Of a stretch of 7,708 nucleotides of DNA, positions 1 through 7,708 are shown piece by piece. Under the pieces are notes generated by a model. It made no database searches, was not told where the DNA came from, and saw only the letters and a program-made list of their open reading frames with translations. Position numbers and translations under genes: made by a program. Origin of the DNA: a virus. Its lineage: Duplodnaviria; Heunggongvirae; Uroviricota; Caudoviricetes. Position 1 is the first letter of the stretch, and the number at the start of each line of letters is the position of its first letter. The stretch lies in IMG/VR virus record IMGVR_UViG_2663763413_000006; one strand, given 5' to 3'.

Positions 1-296
1 GGGCCGGTAAAACCGGACTGATACAGCCACTTATCCGCAGCGTGCTGGACTCCGGGGGCTTTGCCGTGGTGTTCGACATGGGGGATGGCTACAAGTCCCT
101 GTGTGAGAACATGGGGGGCGTATATCTGGACGGTGAAACCCTGCGTTTTAACCCGTTTGCGAACATCACCGATATCGACCAGTCAGCGGAGCGTGTCCGT
201 GACCAGTTGTCAGTGATGGCCAGCCCCAACGGTAACCTGGATGAAGTGCATGAAGGTCTGCTGCTGCAGGCGGTCAGGGCCTCCTGGCTGGCCTGA
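1..296 (+). pseudogene. traC: Internal fragment of F-type conjugative transfer ATPase TraC (VirB4-family T4SS ATPase); 5' end outside window, stop TGA at 294-296
   Basis: Frame starting at nt 3 is open from the window edge and reads AGKTGLIQPLIRSVLDSGGFAVVFDMGDGYKSLCENMGGVYLDGETLRFNPFANITDIDQSAERVRDQLSVMASPNGNLDEVHEGLLLQAVRASWLA. The leading AGKT is the tail of a Walker A P-loop. The string matches my recollection of F-plasmid TraC, which continues past ...RASWLA; here a TGA follows immediately. Recognition is from memory, not a search. Confidence 0.7.
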
Positions 297-647
297 TCCT
301 TAACTGATCGGCATTACAGCCAGATGCTGGGCTTTATTGCCGAAAACTATGATCAGGCGCTGACCATCAACGATGTGGCTGAGCACGTCAAACTTAACGC
401 CAACTATGCAATGGGGATATTCCAGCGGGTCATGCAATTGACGATGAAACAGTACATTACCGCGATGCGCATCAACCACGTTCGCGCGTTACTGAGCGAT
501 ACCGATAAAAGTATTCTCGATATTGCCCTGACGGCAGGCTTTCGTTCGAGTAGCCGTTTTTACAGCACGTTCGGCAAATATGTCGGCATGTCGCCGCAAC
601 AATACCGCAAACTTAGCCAACAGCGCCGCCAGACGTTTCCCGGCTAA
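297..647 (+). pseudogene. melR: 3' portion of an AraC/XylS-family regulator (MelR-like C-terminal HTH DNA-binding domain); 5' part of the gene absent
   Basis: Same frame as the traC fragment. Translation SLTDRHYSQMLGFIAENYDQALTINDVAEHVKLNANYAMGIFQRVMQLTMKQYITAMRINHVRALLSDTDKSILDIALTAGFRSSSRFYSTFGKYVGMSPQQYRKLSQQRRQTFPG is a typical AraC-family tandem-HTH C-terminus. Position directly upstream of adiA matches the E. coli melR-adiA-adiY-adiC arrangement. Only about 115 codons are present, so the gene is 5'-truncated. Confidence 0.6.
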
Positions 648-842
648 AGACGATATCAGTATCAGCCAAAAAAATAGTTTAGCCGTCGATAATAAGCAGT
701 GAAAATAATTTAAAATAATCACATAACGTATTGTTTATAAAAATAAATATTTCAAAAATGTTTGTTTTTCACGCGCTTTACAGCCCGAAAAGGCCGGAAG
801 ATACTTGCCCGCAACGAAGATTCCTTCATAACCGGGTAAGCA
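648..842 (+). promoter_or_regulatory. AT-rich upstream control region of adiA (promoter not resolved to -35/-10)
   Basis: Strongly AT-rich intergenic tract (aaaaatagtttagcc...tttataaaaataaatatttcaaaaatg) between the regulator fragment and the adiA start at 843. No convincing sigma70 hexamer pair could be assigned by eye. Confidence 0.3.
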
Positions 843-3183
843 ATGATGAAAGTATTAATTGTTGAAAGCGAGTTTCTCCATCAAGACACCTGGGTCGGTA
901 ACGCCGTTGAGCGTCTGGCAGATGCTTTAAGCCAGCAAAATGTTACCGTGATTAAATCCACCTCCTTTGATGATGGTTTTGCCATTCTCTCTTCAAACGA
1001 AGCCATTGACTGCCTGATGTTCAGCTATCAAATGGAACATCCGGACGAACATCAAAACGTCAGACAATTGATCGGTAAGCTTCATGAGCGCCAACAAAAC
1101 GTGCCGGTCTTCCTGTTGGGCGATCGGGAAAAAGCCCTCGCCGCAATGGACCGGGATCTGCTGGAGCTTGTCGATGAATTCGCCTGGATTCTGGAAGATA
1201 CCGCCGACTTTATCGCCGGACGCGCCGTTGCCGCGATGACCCGCTACCGCCAGCAGCTATTGCCGCCACTGTTCAGCGCGCTGATGAAATATAGCGACAT
1301 CCATGAATATTCCTGGGCAGCGCCAGGCCACCAGGGCGGCGTTGGTTTTACCAAAACACCCGCCGGACGTTTCTACCATGACTATTATGGTGAAAATCTG
1401 TTCCGCACCGACATGGGTATCGAACGCACTTCCCTCGGTTCTTTGCTTGACCATACTGGCGCATTTGGCGAAAGCGAAAGATATGCCGCACGCGTATTTG
1501 GTGCCGATCGCTCCTGGTCGGTAGTCGTCGGTACTTCCGGCTCTAACCGCACCATCATGCAGGCTTGCATGACCGATAACGAGATAGTAGGTCGGTGACC
1601 GTAACTGCCAGAAATCCATCGAAAAAGCCATAAAGCCAACAAACAAGAAACCAGGCTAACAGGCGCGAAACCGGTCTACATGGTGCCAAGCCGCAACCGC
1701 TACGGCATTATCGGGCCAATCTATCCGCAGGAAATGCAACCTGAAACCTTGCAGAAGAAAATCAATGAAAGCCCGCTGACCAAAGACAAAGCCGGGCAAA
1801 AACCGTCTTACTGCGTGGTGACCAACTGCACCTATGACGGCGTGTGTTATAACGCTAAAGAAGCACAGGATCTGCTGGAAAAAACCTCCGATCGTCTGCA
1901 CTCTGACGAAGCACTGGTACGGCTATGAACGTTCCAACCCGATCCATGCCGATCACGAGCCATGCGACAGCTCTATGCCGATCAACCCGATCTATGCCGA
2001 TCACTATGCCATGCGCGGCGAACCTGGCGATCACAACGGTCCTACCGTTTTCGCCACCCACTCCACCCACAAACTGCTGAATGCGCTGTCACAGGCCTCT
2101 TATATTCATGTACGTGAAGGTCGTGGGGCGATTAACTTCTCCCGCTTCAACCAGGCCTACATGATGCATGCCACCACCTCCCCGCTGTATGCCATCTGCG
2201 CATCCAACGACGTGGCGGTGTCGATGATGGACGGCAACAGCGGCCTGTCACTGACCCAGGAAGTGATCGACGAAGCGGTTGATTTCCGTCAGGCGATGGC
2301 GCGGCTATATAAAGAGTTCACCGCTGACGGTAGCTGGTTCTTCAAACCGTGGAACAAAGAAGTCGTCACCGACCCACAAACCGGCAAAACCTATGACTTT
2401 GCTGACGCACCAACCAAACTGCTGACCACCGTTCAGGACTGCTGGGTCATGCATCCGGGCGAAAGCTGGCACGGCTTCAAAGATATTCCGGATAACTGGA
2501 GTATGCTCGACCCGATTAAAGTCAGCATCCTTGCTCCGGGAATGGGTGAAGATGGTGAACTGGAAGAAACCGGTGTTCCGGCGGCGCTGGTCACAGCCTG
2601 GCTTGGTCGCCACGGCATTGTGCCTACCCGTACCACTGACTTCCAGATTATGTTCCTGTTCTCTATGGGCGTGACCCGTGGGAAATGGGGGACTCTGGTT
2701 AACACCCTTTGCTCCTTCAAACGCCACTATGATGCCAACACACCGCTGGCGCAGGTGATGCCGGAACTTGTTGAACAATATCCTGACACTTACGCGAACA
2801 TGGGGATTCACGATCTGGGTGACACCATGTTTGCCTGGCTGAAAGAAAACAACCCTGGCGCACGGTTGAATGAAGCCTATTCCGGCCTACCGGTGGCGGA
2901 AATCACCCCGCGTGAAGCGTACAACGCGATTGTCGACAACAATGTCGAACTGGTATCCATTGAAAATCTGCCAGGACGTATCGCGGCAAACTCAGTTATC
3001 CCGTATCCGCCAGGAATCCCGATGCTGCTGTCTGGTGAAAACTTCGGCGATAAAAACAGTCCGCAAGTAAGTTATTTACGCTCGCTGCAATCCTGGGACC
3101 ATCATTTCCCTGGATTTGAACACGAAACAGAAGGGACAGAAATTATTGACGGTATTTACCACGTTATGTGTGTGAAAGCGTAA
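843..3183 (+). pseudogene. adiA: Biodegradative (acid-inducible) arginine decarboxylase AdiA, reading frame broken into three ORFs (843-1598, 1680-1928, 1834-3183)
   Basis: N-terminus MMKVLIVESEFLHQDTWVGNAVERLADALSQQNVTVIKSTSF... and C-terminus ...GTEIIDGIYHVMCVKA match E. coli AdiA as I recall it. In-frame stops TGA 1596-1598 and TAA 1602-1604 lie in a scrambled segment 1581-1658, after which frame 0 resumes (TGAKPVYMVPSRNRYG). A +1 shift near 1911-1916 moves the native reading to frame 1 (WYGY...). A 48-bp in-frame insertion at about 1936-1983 is a diverged partial copy of the following sequence. Confidence 0.85.
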
Positions 3184-3199
3184 CCACTATTCCGCTGAA

Positions 3200-3226
3200 G
3201 GCGTAATTGTTAAATAACATTACGCC
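3200..3226. other. 27-nt near-perfect palindrome (hairpin-capable) immediately downstream of the adiA stop
   Basis: ggcgtaat tgttaaataac attacgcc: 8-bp perfect outer stem (3200-3207 with 3219-3226), a further 4 bp after one mismatch. No T-run follows, so it is not a canonical intrinsic terminator. Confidence 0.4.
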
Positions 3227-3300
3227 GCCTGGCTTGAGGCCTTTTAAGTATGGCAACGTTTTCATAAAAATTGCTGCAAACAAAAAATGTCATGCTTTTT

Positions 3301-3328
3301 GCGCGGTCCCACCCCGCGCTTTTTTTTG
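3301..3328 (+). terminator. Rho-independent terminator between adiA and adiY
   Basis: GC-rich stem gcgcgg (3301-3306) pairing with ccgcgc (3314-3319), 7-nt loop tcccacc, followed directly by a run of 8 T (3320-3327). Confidence 0.6.
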
Positions 3329-3518
3329 CCTGTTATTTATCCTTTTTTTAGCCTGTAAAAAAATATGTACATGAGAAATTACTATAAAAATTTGTAATAT
3401 TAGTAAAACTCGTTATTTTTATGCATGTTTATATTCATCATACAATTATATAACCATTTCCCGGTATCGCTTCGCTTTAGCGAGAACTGGTCTTTTATTC
3501 GCACTCAGGAGTACATGT

Positions 3519-4443
3519 ATGAGGATTTGCAGCGACCAACCTTGTATTGTTTTATTGACTGAAAAAGATGTCTGGATAAGGGTGAATGGGAAAGAACCTA
3601 TTAGCCTTAAAGCTAACCACATGGCGTTATTAAATTGTGAAAATAATATTATCGACGTCTCCTCTCTTAATAACACTTTGGTTGCTCATATTAGTCACGA
3701 CATCATCAAAGATTACCTCCGGTTTCTGAATAAAGATCTCTCGCAAATACCAGTATGGCAACGTAGCGCTACGCCCATCCTCACCCTTCCATGCCTGACG
3801 CCAGACGTCTTTCGCGTTGCCGCGCAGCATAGCATGATGCCCGCTGAAACTGAGTCAGAAAAGGAACGAACACGTGCATTATTATTCACTGTGCTATCCC
3901 GTTTTCTCGACAGTAAAAAATTCCTTTCACTAATGATGTATATGTTTCACTAATGATGTATATGTTACGTAATTGTGTAAGTGACAGCGTTTATCAAATT
4001 GTGTAAGTGACAGCGTTTATCAAATTATTGAAAGCGAAATCCACAAAGACTGGAATCTTAGTATGCCAGCAAGAGACTGGAATCTTAGTATGGTAGCCAG
4101 TTTGGAATCTTAGTATGGTAGCCAGTTGATGATGTCTCAGCCCAAGTCTGTTAAAGAAAAAGCTGAAAAGCGAAAACACCAGTTATAGCCAAATAATCAC
4201 CACCTGCCGCATGCGTTATGCCGTAAATGAATTAATGATGGACGGTAAAAATATTTAATAATGGACGGTAAAAATATCTCTCAGGTACGCTAAAAATATC
4301 TCACAGGTATCACAGTCCTGCGGCTACAACAGTACGTCGTACTTTATTTCTGTCCTTAAAGACTTATACGGTATGACGCCGCTGCATAAGGTATGACGCC
4401 GCTGCATTATGTTAGTCAGCACAGAGAACGCACTGTCGCCTGA
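3519..4443 (+). pseudogene. adiY: AraC-family activator AdiY, disrupted by multiple short tandem duplications and in-frame stops
   Basis: ORF 3519-3953 reads MRICSDQPCIVLLTEKDVWIRVNGKEPISLKANHMALLNCENNIIDVSSLNN..., matching recalled E. coli AdiY, then terminates early at TAA 3951-3953 inside a duplicated segment. Downstream sequence still encodes AdiY-like peptides in shifting frames (e.g. [56 protein letters not shown]) up to the native-looking stop TGA 4441-4443. Good RBS aggag 8 nt upstream of the ATG. Confidence 0.8.
3925..4409 (+). repeat. Cluster of short direct tandem duplications inside adiY
   Basis: Read directly: tttcactaatgatgtatatg x2 (3925-3944, 3945-3964); attgtgtaagtgacagcgtttatcaa x2 (3972-3997, 3998-4023); gactggaatcttagtatg(gtagccagtt) in three overlapping copies (4048-4065, 4075-4102, 4103-4127); atggacggtaaaaatat x2 (4238-4254, 4261-4277) with a third partial copy near 4291-4310; ggtatgacgccgctgcat x2 (4370-4387, 4390-4407). 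Confidence 0.85.
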
Positions 4444-4579
4444 TTTTTAACCTTAACGAAGAGCTATATTAATAACGGCATCAGCGATAACCCGGCCGAT
4501 AATAATTCAACTATCGAATGCAGGCGTATGATATGACGTAATTTATTGTCACGAAGCTCGCCTTCGCAGGAGTTTAATT

Positions 4580-5163
<584 letters not shown>

Positions 5164-5164
5164 T

Positions 5165-5242
<78 letters not shown>

Positions 5243-5251
5243 TTGCAGATA

Positions 5252-5641
5252 TTACTCTTTTTTCTCCGTATCTGCATCGGGTTCATCAGCAAATAGCTTG
5301 CCCTGCATCCGATCCAGTTCTTCTTTTCTTACCCGCTTAACCACGCTGTAGACCCACTGAAGCGAAACACCAAATTTGCGGGCCAGTTCGTGGTGGTTGC
5401 GTCCGTTAAACTCCCTGAAGATTTCCCGGTCGCGCTGACTGACCTTCCATACCATGCCCATCGGGAAATAAACGTTTTGCCCGCCCCAGACCTGCATCAT
5501 TCGGTTCGCGACGGCCTGACCAATCTGGTCGGCAACTTCGGGCTCAATATCAATAATCTCGCGAACGGTCTCAGAGGTATGCTGTGCCAGTTCCACCAGG
5601 AGTTCCGGCCCCTTACTTCGAAACTGATTCAGGTCGCTCAT
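5252..5641 (-). CDS. mor: Mor-like middle-operon transcriptional activator (Mu gp17 family)
   Basis: 129 aa. C-terminal region ...GGQNVYFPMGMVWKVSQRDREIFREFNGRNHHELARKFGVSLQWVYSVVKRVRK resembles the conserved Mor/C-family HTH region of phage Mu Mor as I recall it (...FNGRN..EL...YG......VY...RR.R). Start overlaps the upstream gemA-like gene by 29 nt. Confidence 0.7.
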   Translation of the reverse strand: MSDLNQFRSKGPELLVELAQHTSETVREIIDIEPEVADQIGQAVANRMMQVWGGQNVYFPMGMVWKVSQRDREIFREFNGRNHHELARKFGVSLQWVYSVVKRVRKEELDRMQGKLFADEPDADTEKKE

Positions 5642-6062
5642 GTTTGACTCCCGCAGCTCTGCGCTGCCACTTCTTCAGTTTCTCAATAACACTGCTTGCC
5701 TGTTCAGTACTGAGCCAGCGCAGGGCGCTGATGCCCGTTTCCCGCTTGATCCACCTCGCTAATGCATTTTCTGAACGGTCACGAACAATGCCGGCAGCAG
5801 CCATTTCAAGCCATAGCGCACGAATTTTCCTGGACTGCGGATGGTTATCAAGCGGTAAACCGGAGCTGGCTTTTCTGGCTGGTTTAACGCGAAAGCCTTT
5901 CTTTTTCATGGATTCCAGCACGCAGTTTAGTTGTGTGGTATCCATTCCTTTGGTTGAGGCTTTACCGGTCAGCCCCTGTAACATCTGGCGGTAGGTGTCT
6001 TCATCCATACCCAGTTCATTACGGGCAATATGGATAAGCTGTATCAGGCGTTTTTTCTGCAT
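5613..6062 (-). CDS. gemA: GemA-like protein (Mu gp16 / DUF1018 family)
   Basis: 149 aa, MQKKRLIQLIHIARNELGMDEDTYRQMLQGLTGKASTKGMDTTQLNCVLESMKKKGFR...KIRALWLEMAAAG... matches the GemA family pattern recalled from Mu-like prophage annotations. Lies immediately upstream of mor as in phage Mu. RBS ggag upstream of ATG at 6062. Confidence 0.65.
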   Translation of the reverse strand: MQKKRLIQLIHIARNELGMDEDTYRQMLQGLTGKASTKGMDTTQLNCVLESMKKKGFRVKPARKASSGLPLDNHPQSRKIRALWLEMAAAGIVRDRSENALARWIKRETGISALRWLSTEQASSVIEKLKKWQRRAAGVKHERPESVSK

Positions 6063-6063
6063 A

Positions 6064-6270
6064 TCATCTCCTTTTTTTCAGTCTGTCGGCAACAATGTCG
6101 GTTGCAGCTGGCAGGGTGACTGGCCAGAACAACATGACGGCGGTCATGTACAGGATGTAATGCGCGGTGTCGTAGTGCCTGCCATAGCCCAGGGAACGAT
6201 GAAGTCTTGCGCTGCATGATCCTGCGTACATATACCAGAAAAGAAAACAGACAATGGTTTCAGTAGTCAT
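6064..6270 (-). CDS. Small hydrophobic (putative membrane) protein, 68 aa, unknown function
   Basis: Internal start of the 6064-6426 ORF: ATG at 6270-6268 preceded by ggagg about 10 nt upstream. MTTETIVCFLFWYMYAGSCSARLHRSLGYGRHYDTAHYILYMTAVMLFWPVTLPAATDIVADRLKKRR has two hydrophobic segments. Start overlaps the stop of the upstream gene; the stop is 1 nt from the gemA start. Confidence 0.4.
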   Translation of the reverse strand: MTTETIVCFLFWYMYAGSCSARLHRSLGYGRHYDTAHYILYMTAVMLFWPVTLPAATDIVADRLKKRR

Positions 6271-6490
6271 TCTGAATACCTCCCCATTCGATATGAATAT
6301 TACGGGCAGCAATGACAGGGTCGTTATTCCACCATGCACCTGACATGTATTTTTCAACCTGTTCGCGTCCGGCAATAACACCAATTGTGATCCCCGGCCT
6401 GACGTTCTTAAAAAAGGCGCGGGCAAAAAGGTATCTGGCAGATATTCGGCAGGCTTTTAATTTCCGGCTTTTACCTGATAGCGTAATCAT
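6260..6490 (-). CDS. Hypothetical phage protein, 76 aa
   Basis: ORF with ATG overlapping the TGA of the upstream DUF2786-like gene (ATGA at 6487-6490, minus strand), consistent with translational coupling in a phage operon. No family recognised. Confidence 0.4.
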   Translation of the reverse strand: MITLSGKSRKLKACRISARYLFARAFFKNVRPGITIGVIAGREQVEKYMSGAWWNNDPVIAARNIHIEWGGIQNDY

Positions 6491-7170
6491 CTGGCCTCCA
6501 GTTTCTGTTGTTCCTGCCCACTGACCGGGCGGTGCAGTCTGACGTTCTGCCCTTCACGAAACCCCGCATAGCGCGAGGCGTCGCCATTGCGGCTTCTTCC
6601 CGGTTTACGCGCCCTGGTGGTTTGCGTCTGCGGGTATTTATGTTCCAGCCACTGCTGCATCAGTTCACGCTCATCATCGGTCAGGGCAAAGGACTGTATT
6701 TCACTGATAACGGCCAGCACCCAGCCTTCGGCAAACTGGTCTCCACGGCTGGTGCGGGTGGCGGTTTTTATTCTTTTGTTCTGTGCACTGATATACTGCT
6801 GACGCGCCTTTTTCAGCTGACGGGCCAGCACTTCCCAGGTGTATGCAGCCAGTGCCGCACGTTCCCGGTTGCCGTAGAACCCCACAGACGGATGCGTGCC
6901 GGGGTGAATGATGGAGTTAACACCAAATACCTCGCGGATGATGTTCATCAGGCCCAGCATGTAGCGCGGTGGACGGAGACTGCCTGTCGGCCAGTAGTGA
7001 CTGATGGTTTCATCAATATCACTCATAGCAATGTCGGAATGTGTGATGCCGTGAACATCCATCAGTTTACGGGCTCGGCGCAGTGCCAGAGCGGCCTCGT
7101 GCGGGTTGCCGGATGCGGCCAGCGCCAGCAACTTTTTCAGTTTCTCAATGTGTTTATTCTGGTCTGTCAT
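6487..7170 (-). CDS. DUF2786-like phage protein (227 aa from ATG 7170; the six-frame ORF extends to 7206)
   Basis: N-terminus MTDQNKHIEKLKKLLALAASGNPHEAALALRRARKLMDVHG resembles the DUF2786 signature (EKI.KLLALA.S.N..EA..A...A..LM) common in prophage early regions. The ATG at 7170 overlaps the TGA of the upstream gene (ATGA) and has ggag about 11 nt upstream, so I prefer it over the 7206 start. Confidence 0.55.
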   Translation of the reverse strand: MTDQNKHIEKLKKLLALAASGNPHEAALALRRARKLMDVHGITHSDIAMSDIDETISHYWPTGSLRPPRYMLGLMNIIREVFGVNSIIHPGTHPSVGFYGNRERAALAAYTWEVLARQLKKARQQYISAQNKRIKTATRTSRGDQFAEGWVLAVISEIQSFALTDDERELMQQWLEHKYPQTQTTRARKPGRSRNGDASRYAGFREGQNVRLHRPVSGQEQQKLEAR

Positions 7171-7382
7171 TGTTCTGTATCTCCGGTATTTTTCTGCCGT
7201 TTCCATGCCCGGACAGCGTCGGACAGCTCTTTCAGGCTGTATGCTGCTTTAAGCTTTTCCCATAACCACTGTGTTGTTATGTGCATCAGCAGGGCAGCCA
7301 GGGCTGCCCCCGCACTGAGGCATGTCGCCAGGCCAGTAAGAATCAGTGTCCATGCGGTGATTTCCCTGAGTATGTCAGCCAT
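7167..7382 (-). CDS. Small putative membrane protein, 71 aa, unknown function
   Basis: MADILREITAWTLILTGLATCLSAGAALAALLMHITTQWLWEKLKAAYSLKELSDAVRAWKRQKNTGDTEQ has one clear hydrophobic helix. RBS gggagg 8 nt upstream of the ATG; stop overlaps the start of the downstream gene. Confidence 0.4.
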   Translation of the reverse strand: MADILREITAWTLILTGLATCLSAGAALAALLMHITTQWLWEKLKAAYSLKELSDAVRAWKRQKNTGDTEQ

Positions 7383-7396
7383 TGAATGCCTCCCGG

Positions 7397-7693
7397 TTAC
7401 TCGTTCGTGTAAATCACGCCCAGTCGTGCAGCCAGACGTTCCAGTTTTTTCTGTTTGTGGAAGTCAATCAGCCGGTCCATCCCCTGAAGGCGCAGTTGCT
7501 CTGTCATGATTTCCACGTCTGCCAGCTCTGCCGCGAGGTCACTTTCGCTGCCCTGTCCGTTCAGGTTGCGGGCGGCACTGGCCGCCAGTTCAGCGGCCTC
7601 TTCTGCCAGTTTCAGGGCCTGTGCGTCCGGCCCGAAACGCTGCAGGGCCAGACGGTAGAGGGCGGTGCGGGTGAGTTCGGTGTTTCGTGTCAT
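7397..7693 (-). CDS. Small MazG-like all-alpha nucleotide pyrophosphohydrolase-type protein, 98 aa (motif-based call)
   Basis: Contains E31-x3-E35 (LAEEAAELAAS), then 20 residues later E56-x2-D59 (AAELADVEIM), matching the MazG/HisE-type metal-binding signature E-x3-E ... E-x2-D. RBS gaggg upstream of ATG at 7693. Inferred from motif only. Confidence 0.5.
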   Translation of the reverse strand: MTRNTELTRTALYRLALQRFGPDAQALKLAEEAAELAASAARNLNGQGSESDLAAELADVEIMTEQLRLQGMDRLIDFHKQKKLERLAARLGVIYTNE

Positions 7694-7708
7694 GCCGCGC
7701 CCTCAGTG

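What the first reader, a model, noticed from the sequence alone, without database searches (positions are those of the whole stretch)
285..330. Abrupt in-frame junction between traC fragment and melR 3' end
The TraC-like reading frame ends ...RASWLA and is followed immediately by TGA (294-296). The same frame then continues as SLTDRHYSQMLGF..., the C-terminal domain of an AraC-family regulator. No inverted repeat, target-site duplication or transposase is visible, so the breakpoint looks like a clean deletion or ligation joint rather than an IS-mediated event.
Basis: partly seen in the sequence, partly recalled or inferred. Interest (0 to 1): 0.55.

Follow-up and report, generated by a model that had tools for sequence, protein, structure and literature searches.

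The report
IS4 stub at chimeric contig joint
The "clean" traC–melR joint is really the tip of an IS4 insertion sequence that interrupts melR, stuck onto an unrelated 293-base plasmid fragment in a small, error-laden draft-assembly contig, so it is most likely an assembly artefact and not a new rearrangement.

Summary
traC identity (100% to IncF plasmids) ends at base 293. melR identity starts at 317. The 23 bases between them (24 counting the shared C at 293) are the outermost end of insertion sequence IS4. A complete genome, E. coli 7CC, carries a full 1426-bp IS4 in melR at exactly this position, with a 13-bp target duplication CAGCCAGATGCTG (window 317-329). The TGA stop and the residues "SLTDRHY" therefore come from the IS4 terminal repeat, not from melR. 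So melR is broken by an IS insertion.

traC is attached to the inner side of that 24-base stub. A transposase does not make such a joint, and no searched collection contains it. The window is an entire 7.7-kb contig of a draft assembly (AOQJ01000101.1). Its chromosomal block (melR'-adiA-adiY-adiC') ends on the other side at the exact tip of a Mu-like phage. The block also carries eight short tandem duplications (mostly 20-26 nt) and clustered substitutions seen in none of about 5,400 complete E. coli genomes.

Best reading: two real mobile-element insertions plus a repeat-boundary misjoin in a low-quality contig. Interest is low.

The parts
1..293 (+). Internal fragment of F-type conjugation gene traC (about residues 490-587 of 876, starting in the Walker A region AGKTG). 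It has neither its own start nor its native continuation.
   Evidence: 100% identity over 293 nt to thousands of IncF plasmids, annotated 'type IV secretion system protein TraC'. Identity stops at 293.
293..316 (+). Outermost 24 nt of insertion sequence IS4 (IS4 positions 1403-1426, the end that reads ...TGATCCTTAACTGATCGGCATTA). Base 293 (C) is shared with traC. This stub supplies the TGA stop at 294-296.
   Evidence: The 23-mer has 103 exact multi-copy hits in enterobacterial genomes, typically at repeat boundaries near contig ends. It lies at the end of the 1426-bp element annotated insG / IS4 family transposase. Exact 24-nt match confirmed.
317..329 (+). CAGCCAGATGCTG: one copy of the 13-bp target-site duplication of the IS4 insertion in melR.
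   Evidence: In strain 7CC this 13-mer flanks both ends of a full IS4 inserted in melR.
317..647 (+). 3' part of melR (about the last 109 codons plus the stop; AraC-type helix-turn-helix domain).
   Evidence: Identical to melR of strain D8 from locus position 1501 onwards. Pfam HTH_AraC / HTH_18 on the called gene.
843..3183 (+). adiA (arginine decarboxylase), broken into three ORFs by two garbled zones: 1583-1658 (clustered substitutions plus a 23-nt insertion) and 1903-1981 (a 48-nt imperfect duplication).
3519..4443 (+). adiY, disrupted by tandem duplications of period 20, 26, 25 (three copies), 23/22 and 20 nt.
   Evidence: None of 5,421 matching E. coli genomes has them; the best identity is 80-90%.
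4580..5088 (+). 5' part of adiC (about the first 167 codons). The last 25 nt (5064-5088) are garbled.
5089..7708 (-). The mor/gemA end of a Mu-like transposable phage, identical to Escherichia phage PhiKM and to the prophage inserted at ycaL in ST131-type genomes. The element tip is 5'-TGATTAGAC at 5089.
   Evidence: 100% over 2620 nt. The same tip abuts at least 10 different host genes in other genomes. Pfam Mor and GemA.

Best explanation
The junction is two separate things placed next to each other.

(1) A genuine IS4 insertion in melR. The IS4 outer end abuts melR at 316/317, next to its 13-bp target duplication.

(2) An artefactual attachment of an unrelated 293-nt traC piece to the inner side of the 24-nt IS4 stub.

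The window is one whole small contig of a draft assembly. In the source genome, the unique chromosomal block melR'-adiA-adiY-adiC' appears to lie between two mobile elements: IS4 in melR and a Mu-like phage in adiC. The assembler ran a short distance into IS4, as word-based assemblers do at repeat boundaries. It was then joined to a plasmid fragment, either by a graph or scaffolding misjoin or by a chimeric read. The same poor-quality process left eight short tandem duplications and clustered substitutions inside the block.

Shown: the identity of all four pieces, the IS4 site and its target duplication, the uniqueness of the traC-IS4 joint, and the error pattern. Inferred: that the traC-IS4 joint and the duplications are artefacts. 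No reads were available to test this.
For: The window is the complete contig AOQJ01000101.1 of GCA_000397385.1, and its odd ORFs occur on that single contig among about 15 billion proteins.

Three-part mosaic: traC 1-293, chromosome 317-5088, phage 5089-7708. No record in the plasmid or E. coli collections covers 80% or more of the window.

Bases 293-316 are identical to the last 24 nt of IS4.

A full IS4 sits at the same melR site in strain 7CC, with target duplication CAGCCAGATGCTG.

traC lies on the inner side of the IS4 end, where IS4 interior should follow. The traC-IS4 joint was not found in 72,556 plasmids, 5,426 E. coli genomes, one representative genome per species for 185,579 species, or the metagenome contigs.

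All 29 differences from strain D8 fall into 5 clusters, with clean stretches of 1991, 1266, 694 and 245 nt. None of 100,000 random placements was as clustered.

The tandem duplications have periods of 20-26 nt, similar to the 24-nt IS4 stub, and are absent from all complete genomes.

The flanking traC and phage parts are 100% identical to their references.
Against: No reads or sister contigs of the assembly could be examined, so the artefact is inferred and not demonstrated. The sequencing and assembly method of GCA_000397385.1 is unknown; a literature search for the accession found nothing.

The two outer boundaries of the chromosomal block are precise, biologically meaningful element ends. 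This shows that at least part of the contig reflects real molecules.

The duplication periods are not one constant length, so a simple 'k-1 overlap not trimmed' model does not fit exactly.
Confidence: 0.77

Rival explanations
1. The contig is accurate. This would be a real plasmid-chromosome fusion, such as an integrated F-like plasmid or an F-prime-type product. In it, illegitimate recombination deleted everything between traC codon 587 and a point 24 nt from the end of the IS4 in melR.
For: Both pieces match sequences of the same kind of strain (B2 / uropathogenic-type chromosome, IncF plasmid, PhiKM-type phage). There is a 1-nt overlap (C at 293) at the joint, as in illegitimate joins. The other boundaries of the block are real element ends.
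Against: No other genome, plasmid or metagenome contig has the joint. A random deletion endpoint landing within 24 nt of an IS tip is unlikely, whereas a short run into a repeat is what assemblers typically leave. The traC piece is only 293 nt and sits at a contig end. The same contig shows eight non-biological-looking duplications. The only 'plasmid' carrying melR-adiC is a mislabelled chromosomal fragment with no transfer genes.
Confidence: 0.12
2. One reading: a clean deletion or ligation joint directly between traC and melR with no mobile element involved.
For: No transposase gene lies in the window. The two reading frames happen to coincide.
Against: 23-24 nt of IS4 terminal repeat separate the two genes. 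The melR breakpoint, with its 13-bp target sequence, is identical to a complete IS4 insertion in strain 7CC.
Confidence: 0.02
3. Mobilisation of host DNA by the Mu-like phage. Replicative transposition of the PhiKM-type phage would have carried the adjacent melR-adiC block into the plasmid gene traC, as in Mu-mediated prime-plasmid formation.
For: The phage end abuts adiC exactly at its 5'-TG tip. The phage family clearly transposes to many sites.
Against: From established knowledge of Mu, Mu-mediated transfer leaves a phage copy at each end of the moved host segment. Here the traC side carries an IS4 stub, not a phage end, and the joint is on the inner side of that stub.
Confidence: 0.03

Closest known systems
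IS4 (insG) insertion in melR, as in E. coli strain 7CC (NZ_CM137006.1)
   Same: The IS4 end sequence is identical, the insertion point in melR is identical, and the 13-bp target sequence CAGCCAGATGCTG lies next to the IS4 end in both.
   Different: 7CC has the whole 1426-bp IS4 and the 5' part of melR on the other side. The window keeps only the last 24 nt of IS4, followed inward by traC. The adi block of 7CC belongs to a different lineage (about 1.3% SNPs).
Repeat-boundary contig ends and chimeric contigs in short-read draft assemblies
   Same: Other draft genomes show the same IS4 23-mer close to contig ends, at distances consistent with the assembler's word size where one is given in the contig name. 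Here a 24-nt run into IS4 is followed by unrelated sequence, in a short contig with local duplications of similar length.
   Different: The assembler and read type of this assembly are unknown. The duplication periods vary (20-26 nt, one of 48 nt) and do not equal one word size.
Mu-like transposable phage PhiKM (PQ738613.1) / BcepMu- and phiE255-like prophages
   Same: 100% identity over 2620 nt. The mor-gemA early region points toward the element tip, the tip starts 5'-TG, and insertion sites vary.
   Different: Here the tip abuts adiC, a site not seen in any of the 5,426 complete genomes searched. Only one end is in the window.
F-prime / Hfr-type plasmid-chromosome joints
   Same: Plasmid transfer-gene sequence lies directly next to chromosomal genes.
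   Different: From established knowledge, such joints normally arise through complete IS copies shared by F and the chromosome (IS2, IS3, Tn1000), not IS4. Here no complete IS is present, and no independent record shows the joint.

Membership tests
IS4 insertion sequence (IS4 family, DDE transposase) | Characteristic terminal inverted-repeat sequence at the element tip | tested here: met
   Window 293-316 is identical to the last 24 nt of the 1426-bp IS4 of E. coli.
IS4 insertion sequence (IS4 family, DDE transposase) | Target-site duplication of 11-13 bp flanking the element | tested here: inconclusive
   One copy of the 13-bp target (317-329) is present next to the tip. The second copy would lie beyond the missing part of IS4. 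Both copies are seen in strain 7CC (13 bp) and around the IS4 copy in E. coli ECGI0523, locus L033 (12 bp).
IS4 insertion sequence (IS4 family, DDE transposase) | Transposase gene and second terminal repeat (a complete element) | tested here: not met
   No other significant IS4 match anywhere in the window. Only a 24-nt stub is present.
F-type TraC (VirB4-family conjugation ATPase) | Full-length gene within a tra operon | tested here: not met
   Only 293 nt (residues about 490-587 of 876) are present, 100% identical to annotated traC. The neighbours trbI and traW are absent.
MelR (AraC-family melibiose regulator) | N-terminal sugar-binding/dimerisation part plus C-terminal double helix-turn-helix | tested here: not met
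   Only the C-terminal approximately 109 codons are present (HTH_AraC, HTH_18). The gene is truncated by IS4.
Mu-like transposable phage | Element tip 5'-TG and insertion at many unrelated host sites | tested here: met
   The same tip, TGATTAGAC..., is next to ycaL, cysE, an arylamine N-acetyltransferase gene, a glutathionylspermidine synthase-family gene and others.
Mu-like transposable phage | DDE transposase (A), ATPase (B), Gam, GemA and Mor early genes | tested here: met
   Mor and GemA are in the window. Transposase, AAA ATPase and Gam lie next to them in the identical prophage of CP088398.1.

The most novel reading that the evidence does not exclude
The contig is correct as written. A natural E. 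coli would carry a plasmid-chromosome fusion in which the arginine acid-resistance block, bounded by a 24-nt IS4 stub and a Mu-like phage end, is joined to the middle of traC. The adiA and adiY genes would have been destroyed by a burst of eight 20-50-nt tandem duplications, which would point to an unusual local slippage or repair process.
Probability: 0.07. Interest if true: 0.4.

Novelty: not a real feature. Interest (0 to 1): 0.08.

Why it matters
It matters mainly as quality control. A junction that looks like a plasmid-chromosome gene fusion turns out to be an IS4 boundary plus a probable misjoin in a 7.7-kb draft contig, so it should not be counted as a rearrangement, a gene fusion or evidence of plasmid capture of acid-resistance genes.

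Two parts are probably real but ordinary. IS4 has inserted at the same melR position in two different lineages, which fits the site preference reported for IS4-subgroup elements. A PhiKM-type Mu-like phage has inserted into adiC.

Tried and rejected
(1) I first treated 294-316 as untemplated filler or a garbled copy of the native melR upstream sequence. I rejected this when the 23-mer gave 103 exact multi-copy hits and proved to be the IS4 tip.

(2) I compared the 23-mer from memory with common sequencing adapters. Only a 6-nt GATCGG coincidence with the Illumina adapter appeared, so I dropped it.

(3) I asked whether IS4 could also be inserted in traC, so that the assembler merely collapsed the IS. 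I rejected this because traC abuts the inner side of the terminal repeat and not its tip.

(4) I looked for a precedent of a plasmid carrying melR-adiC. The only 'plasmid' of ordinary plasmid size (94 kb), p009_C, is a non-mobilizable record made only of chromosomal genes. The 'plasmid' CP088398.1 likewise carries chromosomal genes such as rpsA and cmk.

(5) Exact-pattern scans for the junction in genome and metagenome collections found nothing.

(6) Literature searches for AOQJ / GCA_000397385 found nothing relevant, so the strain name and assembly method remain unknown.

(7) I looked for sister contigs of the same assembly through the Mor protein. The protein is too widespread (27,640 index blocks) and none of the listed places came from this assembly.

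(8) Short 10-nt matches of the IS4 tip inside adiA (1946-2003) are chance matches to the native ATGCCGATCA motif.

Full report
**What the window is.** The 7708-base window is one entire contig, AOQJ01000101.1, of the draft assembly GCA_000397385.1. BLAST against annotated plasmids and complete E. coli genomes splits it into three unrelated pieces.
- Bases 1-293 are 100% identical to an internal part of traC of thousands of IncF plasmids.
- Bases 317 to about 5088 are the chromosomal run melR'-adiA-adiY-adiC'.
- Bases 5089-7708 are 100% identical to a prophage region with gemA and mor.

No record covers 80% or more of the window.

**Checking the observation.** Translation from base 3 gives AGKTGLIQ...LLLQAVRASWLA, a TGA at 294-296, then SLTDRHYSQMLGFIAEN in the same frame. 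The reading is therefore correct. In plasmid pPA45B the match is traC nucleotides 1469-1761 of a 2631-nt gene, about residues 490-587 of 876. Native traC continues AAAGAGAAC after base 293, whereas the window continues TGATCCTTA. melR identity starts only at 317. The 23 bases 294-316 match neither native traC nor native melR. The shared frame has a one-in-three chance expectation.

**What the 23 bases are.** An exact scan for TGATCCTTAACTGATCGGCATTA found 103 matches. They are multi-copy within genomes of Shigella, E. coli, Rahnella, Kosakonia, Pantoea and others. Many lie close to contig ends, and some sit on contigs of about 1.4 kb. This is the signature of the tip of a repeated element.

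In E. coli ECGI0523 the 23-mer is the last 23 nt of a 1426-bp element flanked by a 12-bp direct repeat. That element is annotated insG, "IS4-like element IS4 family transposase", in K-12 and many other genomes. Window 293-316 equals IS4 positions 1403-1426 exactly. The C at 293 is shared with traC. There is no other significant IS4 match in the window.

**The melR break is a real IS4 insertion site.** A search with window 286-380 found one complete genome, E. coli 7CC, that matches from 293 to 380 at 100%. In 7CC melR is split by a full IS4. The sequence there reads ...TTTTATGT CAGCCAGATGCTG | TAATGCC...IS4...GATCGGCATTA | CAGCCAGATGCTG GGC..., which is a 13-bp target duplication.

The window has the right-hand junction of this structure, with the duplication copy at 317-329. 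The adi region of 7CC differs from the window by about 1.3%, so the same site is occupied in a different lineage. This fits the marked insertion specificity reported for elements of the IS4 subgroup (PMC2266710).

**The traC-IS4 joint.** traC sits where IS4 interior (...GGATCGGTCAAC) should precede the terminal repeat. A transposase acts at the tip of the element, not 24 nt inside it, so this joint is not a transposition product. It cannot be an IS4 insertion in traC either, because that would put the tip (TAATGCC...) against traC.

The joint was found in none of the following:
- 72,556 plasmids
- 5,426 complete E. coli genomes
- one representative genome for each of 185,579 species
- the metagenome contigs

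**The other end of the chromosomal block.** adiC runs, with its last 25 nt garbled, up to 5088. The next base starts TGATTAGACTTGAG.... In five complete genomes read at the sequence level, that same sequence begins immediately after unrelated host genes: ycaL, an arylamine N-acetyltransferase gene, a glutathionylspermidine synthase-family gene, cysE and a phosphopantetheine-binding protein gene. An exact-protein look-up of Mor found at least ten different neighbourhoods.

The full prophage has a DDE transposase, an AAA ATPase, Gam, GemA and Mor transcribed toward this tip, with late genes diverging from the other side. The segment is 100% identical to Escherichia phage PhiKM and distantly similar to Burkholderia phage phiE255. 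So 5089 is the true 5'-TG tip of a Mu-like transposable phage, and molecules with a phage insertion in adiC must have existed in the sample. No complete genome has the phage at this site.

**Quality of the chromosomal block.** Against strain D8 the block is perfect over stretches of 1266, 245, 1991 and 694 nt. All 29 differences fall in five clusters. None of 100,000 random placements of 29 events gave clean stretches as long.

The clusters consist of clustered substitutions plus insertions that are tandem copies of the adjacent native sequence:
- Periods of 20, 26, 25 (three copies), 23, 22 and 20 nt in and just after adiY.
- A 48-nt imperfect duplication and a 23-nt insertion in adiA.

They break adiA into three ORFs and truncate adiY. 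A search with window 3900-4420 found adiY in 5,421 genomes, and every match was only 80-90% identical, so none carries these duplications. The two ORFs with altered ends occur on this one contig only, among about 15 billion proteins. The traC and phage parts contain no difference from their references.

**Interpretation.** The chromosomal block is bounded on both sides by exact tips of mobile elements. This is what a unique segment between two repeats looks like in an assembly graph. A run of only 24 nt into IS4 resembles the short word-length overhang that assemblers leave at repeat boundaries, as other drafts show. The local duplications have periods in the same 20-26-nt range. The traC piece is a 293-nt fragment at the contig end.

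I infer that the traC-IS4 joint is a misjoin or comes from a chimeric read in a poorly supported contig, and that the duplications are consensus or joining errors. This step is inference. I could not reach the reads, the sister contigs or the assembly method, and literature searches for the accession found nothing.

**Rivals.**
- A real illegitimate recombination between traC of an integrated F-like plasmid and a point 24 nt inside IS4 cannot be excluded. It needs an unlikely endpoint, has no precedent in any searched collection, and leaves the duplications unexplained. The only 94-kb 'plasmid' carrying melR-adiC is a mislabelled chromosomal fragment.
- From established knowledge of Mu, Mu-type mobilisation of host DNA into a plasmid would leave a phage end at the traC side, not an IS4 stub.

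**Verdict.** The melR::IS4 and adiC::phage insertions are probably real and are ordinary events. Interest is low.

Noticed in passing
window 5064-5095: adiC is cut after about codon 167 by the exact 5'-TG tip of a Mu-like transposable phage, 100% identical to phage PhiKM. This insertion site is not seen in any of 5,426 complete E. coli genomes. It implies a real transposition into the arginine/agmatine antiporter gene in at least part of the sampled population.
   Followed up: yes
window 1583-1658, 1903-1981, 3925-4138, 4246-4390, 5064-5080: There are eight local tandem duplications (periods 20-26 nt, one of 48 nt) with clustered substitutions inside an otherwise perfect copy of adiA-adiY-adiC. 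They are absent from all complete genomes. They are probably assembly or consensus errors, but the process that made them is not identified.
   Followed up: partly
L123 (E. coli 7CC, NZ_CM137006.1) 7586-9037: A complete IS4 sits in melR with the 13-bp duplication CAGCCAGATGCTG, at the same position as in the window but in a lineage about 1.3% divergent in the adi genes. This suggests an IS4 hot spot in melR or transfer of the allele by recombination.
   Followed up: partly
L003 (CP088398.1) 2998-3020: In ST131-type genomes the same phage tip lies at the start of ycaL. The annotated ycaL CDS runs about 20 nt into the prophage, apparently because the native start codon was displaced.
   Followed up: no
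L003/L005 (CP088398.1) and L124 (NZ_CP048307.1): Two records filed as plasmids in the plasmid collection look like chromosomal fragments. The stretches examined hold typical chromosomal genes (rpsA, cmk, ycaL; lysS, dcuB, fumB, mel, adi, eptA), and both records are typed non-mobilizable.
   Followed up: no
L005 (CP088398.1) 1368-27418: The PhiKM-type prophage has its early region (repressor-like genes, transposase, ATPase, gam, gemA, mor) transcribed toward the nearby element tip, and its late genes diverge the other way. This is the layout I recall for BcepMu/phiE255-type phages and not for Mu itself.
   Followed up: partly
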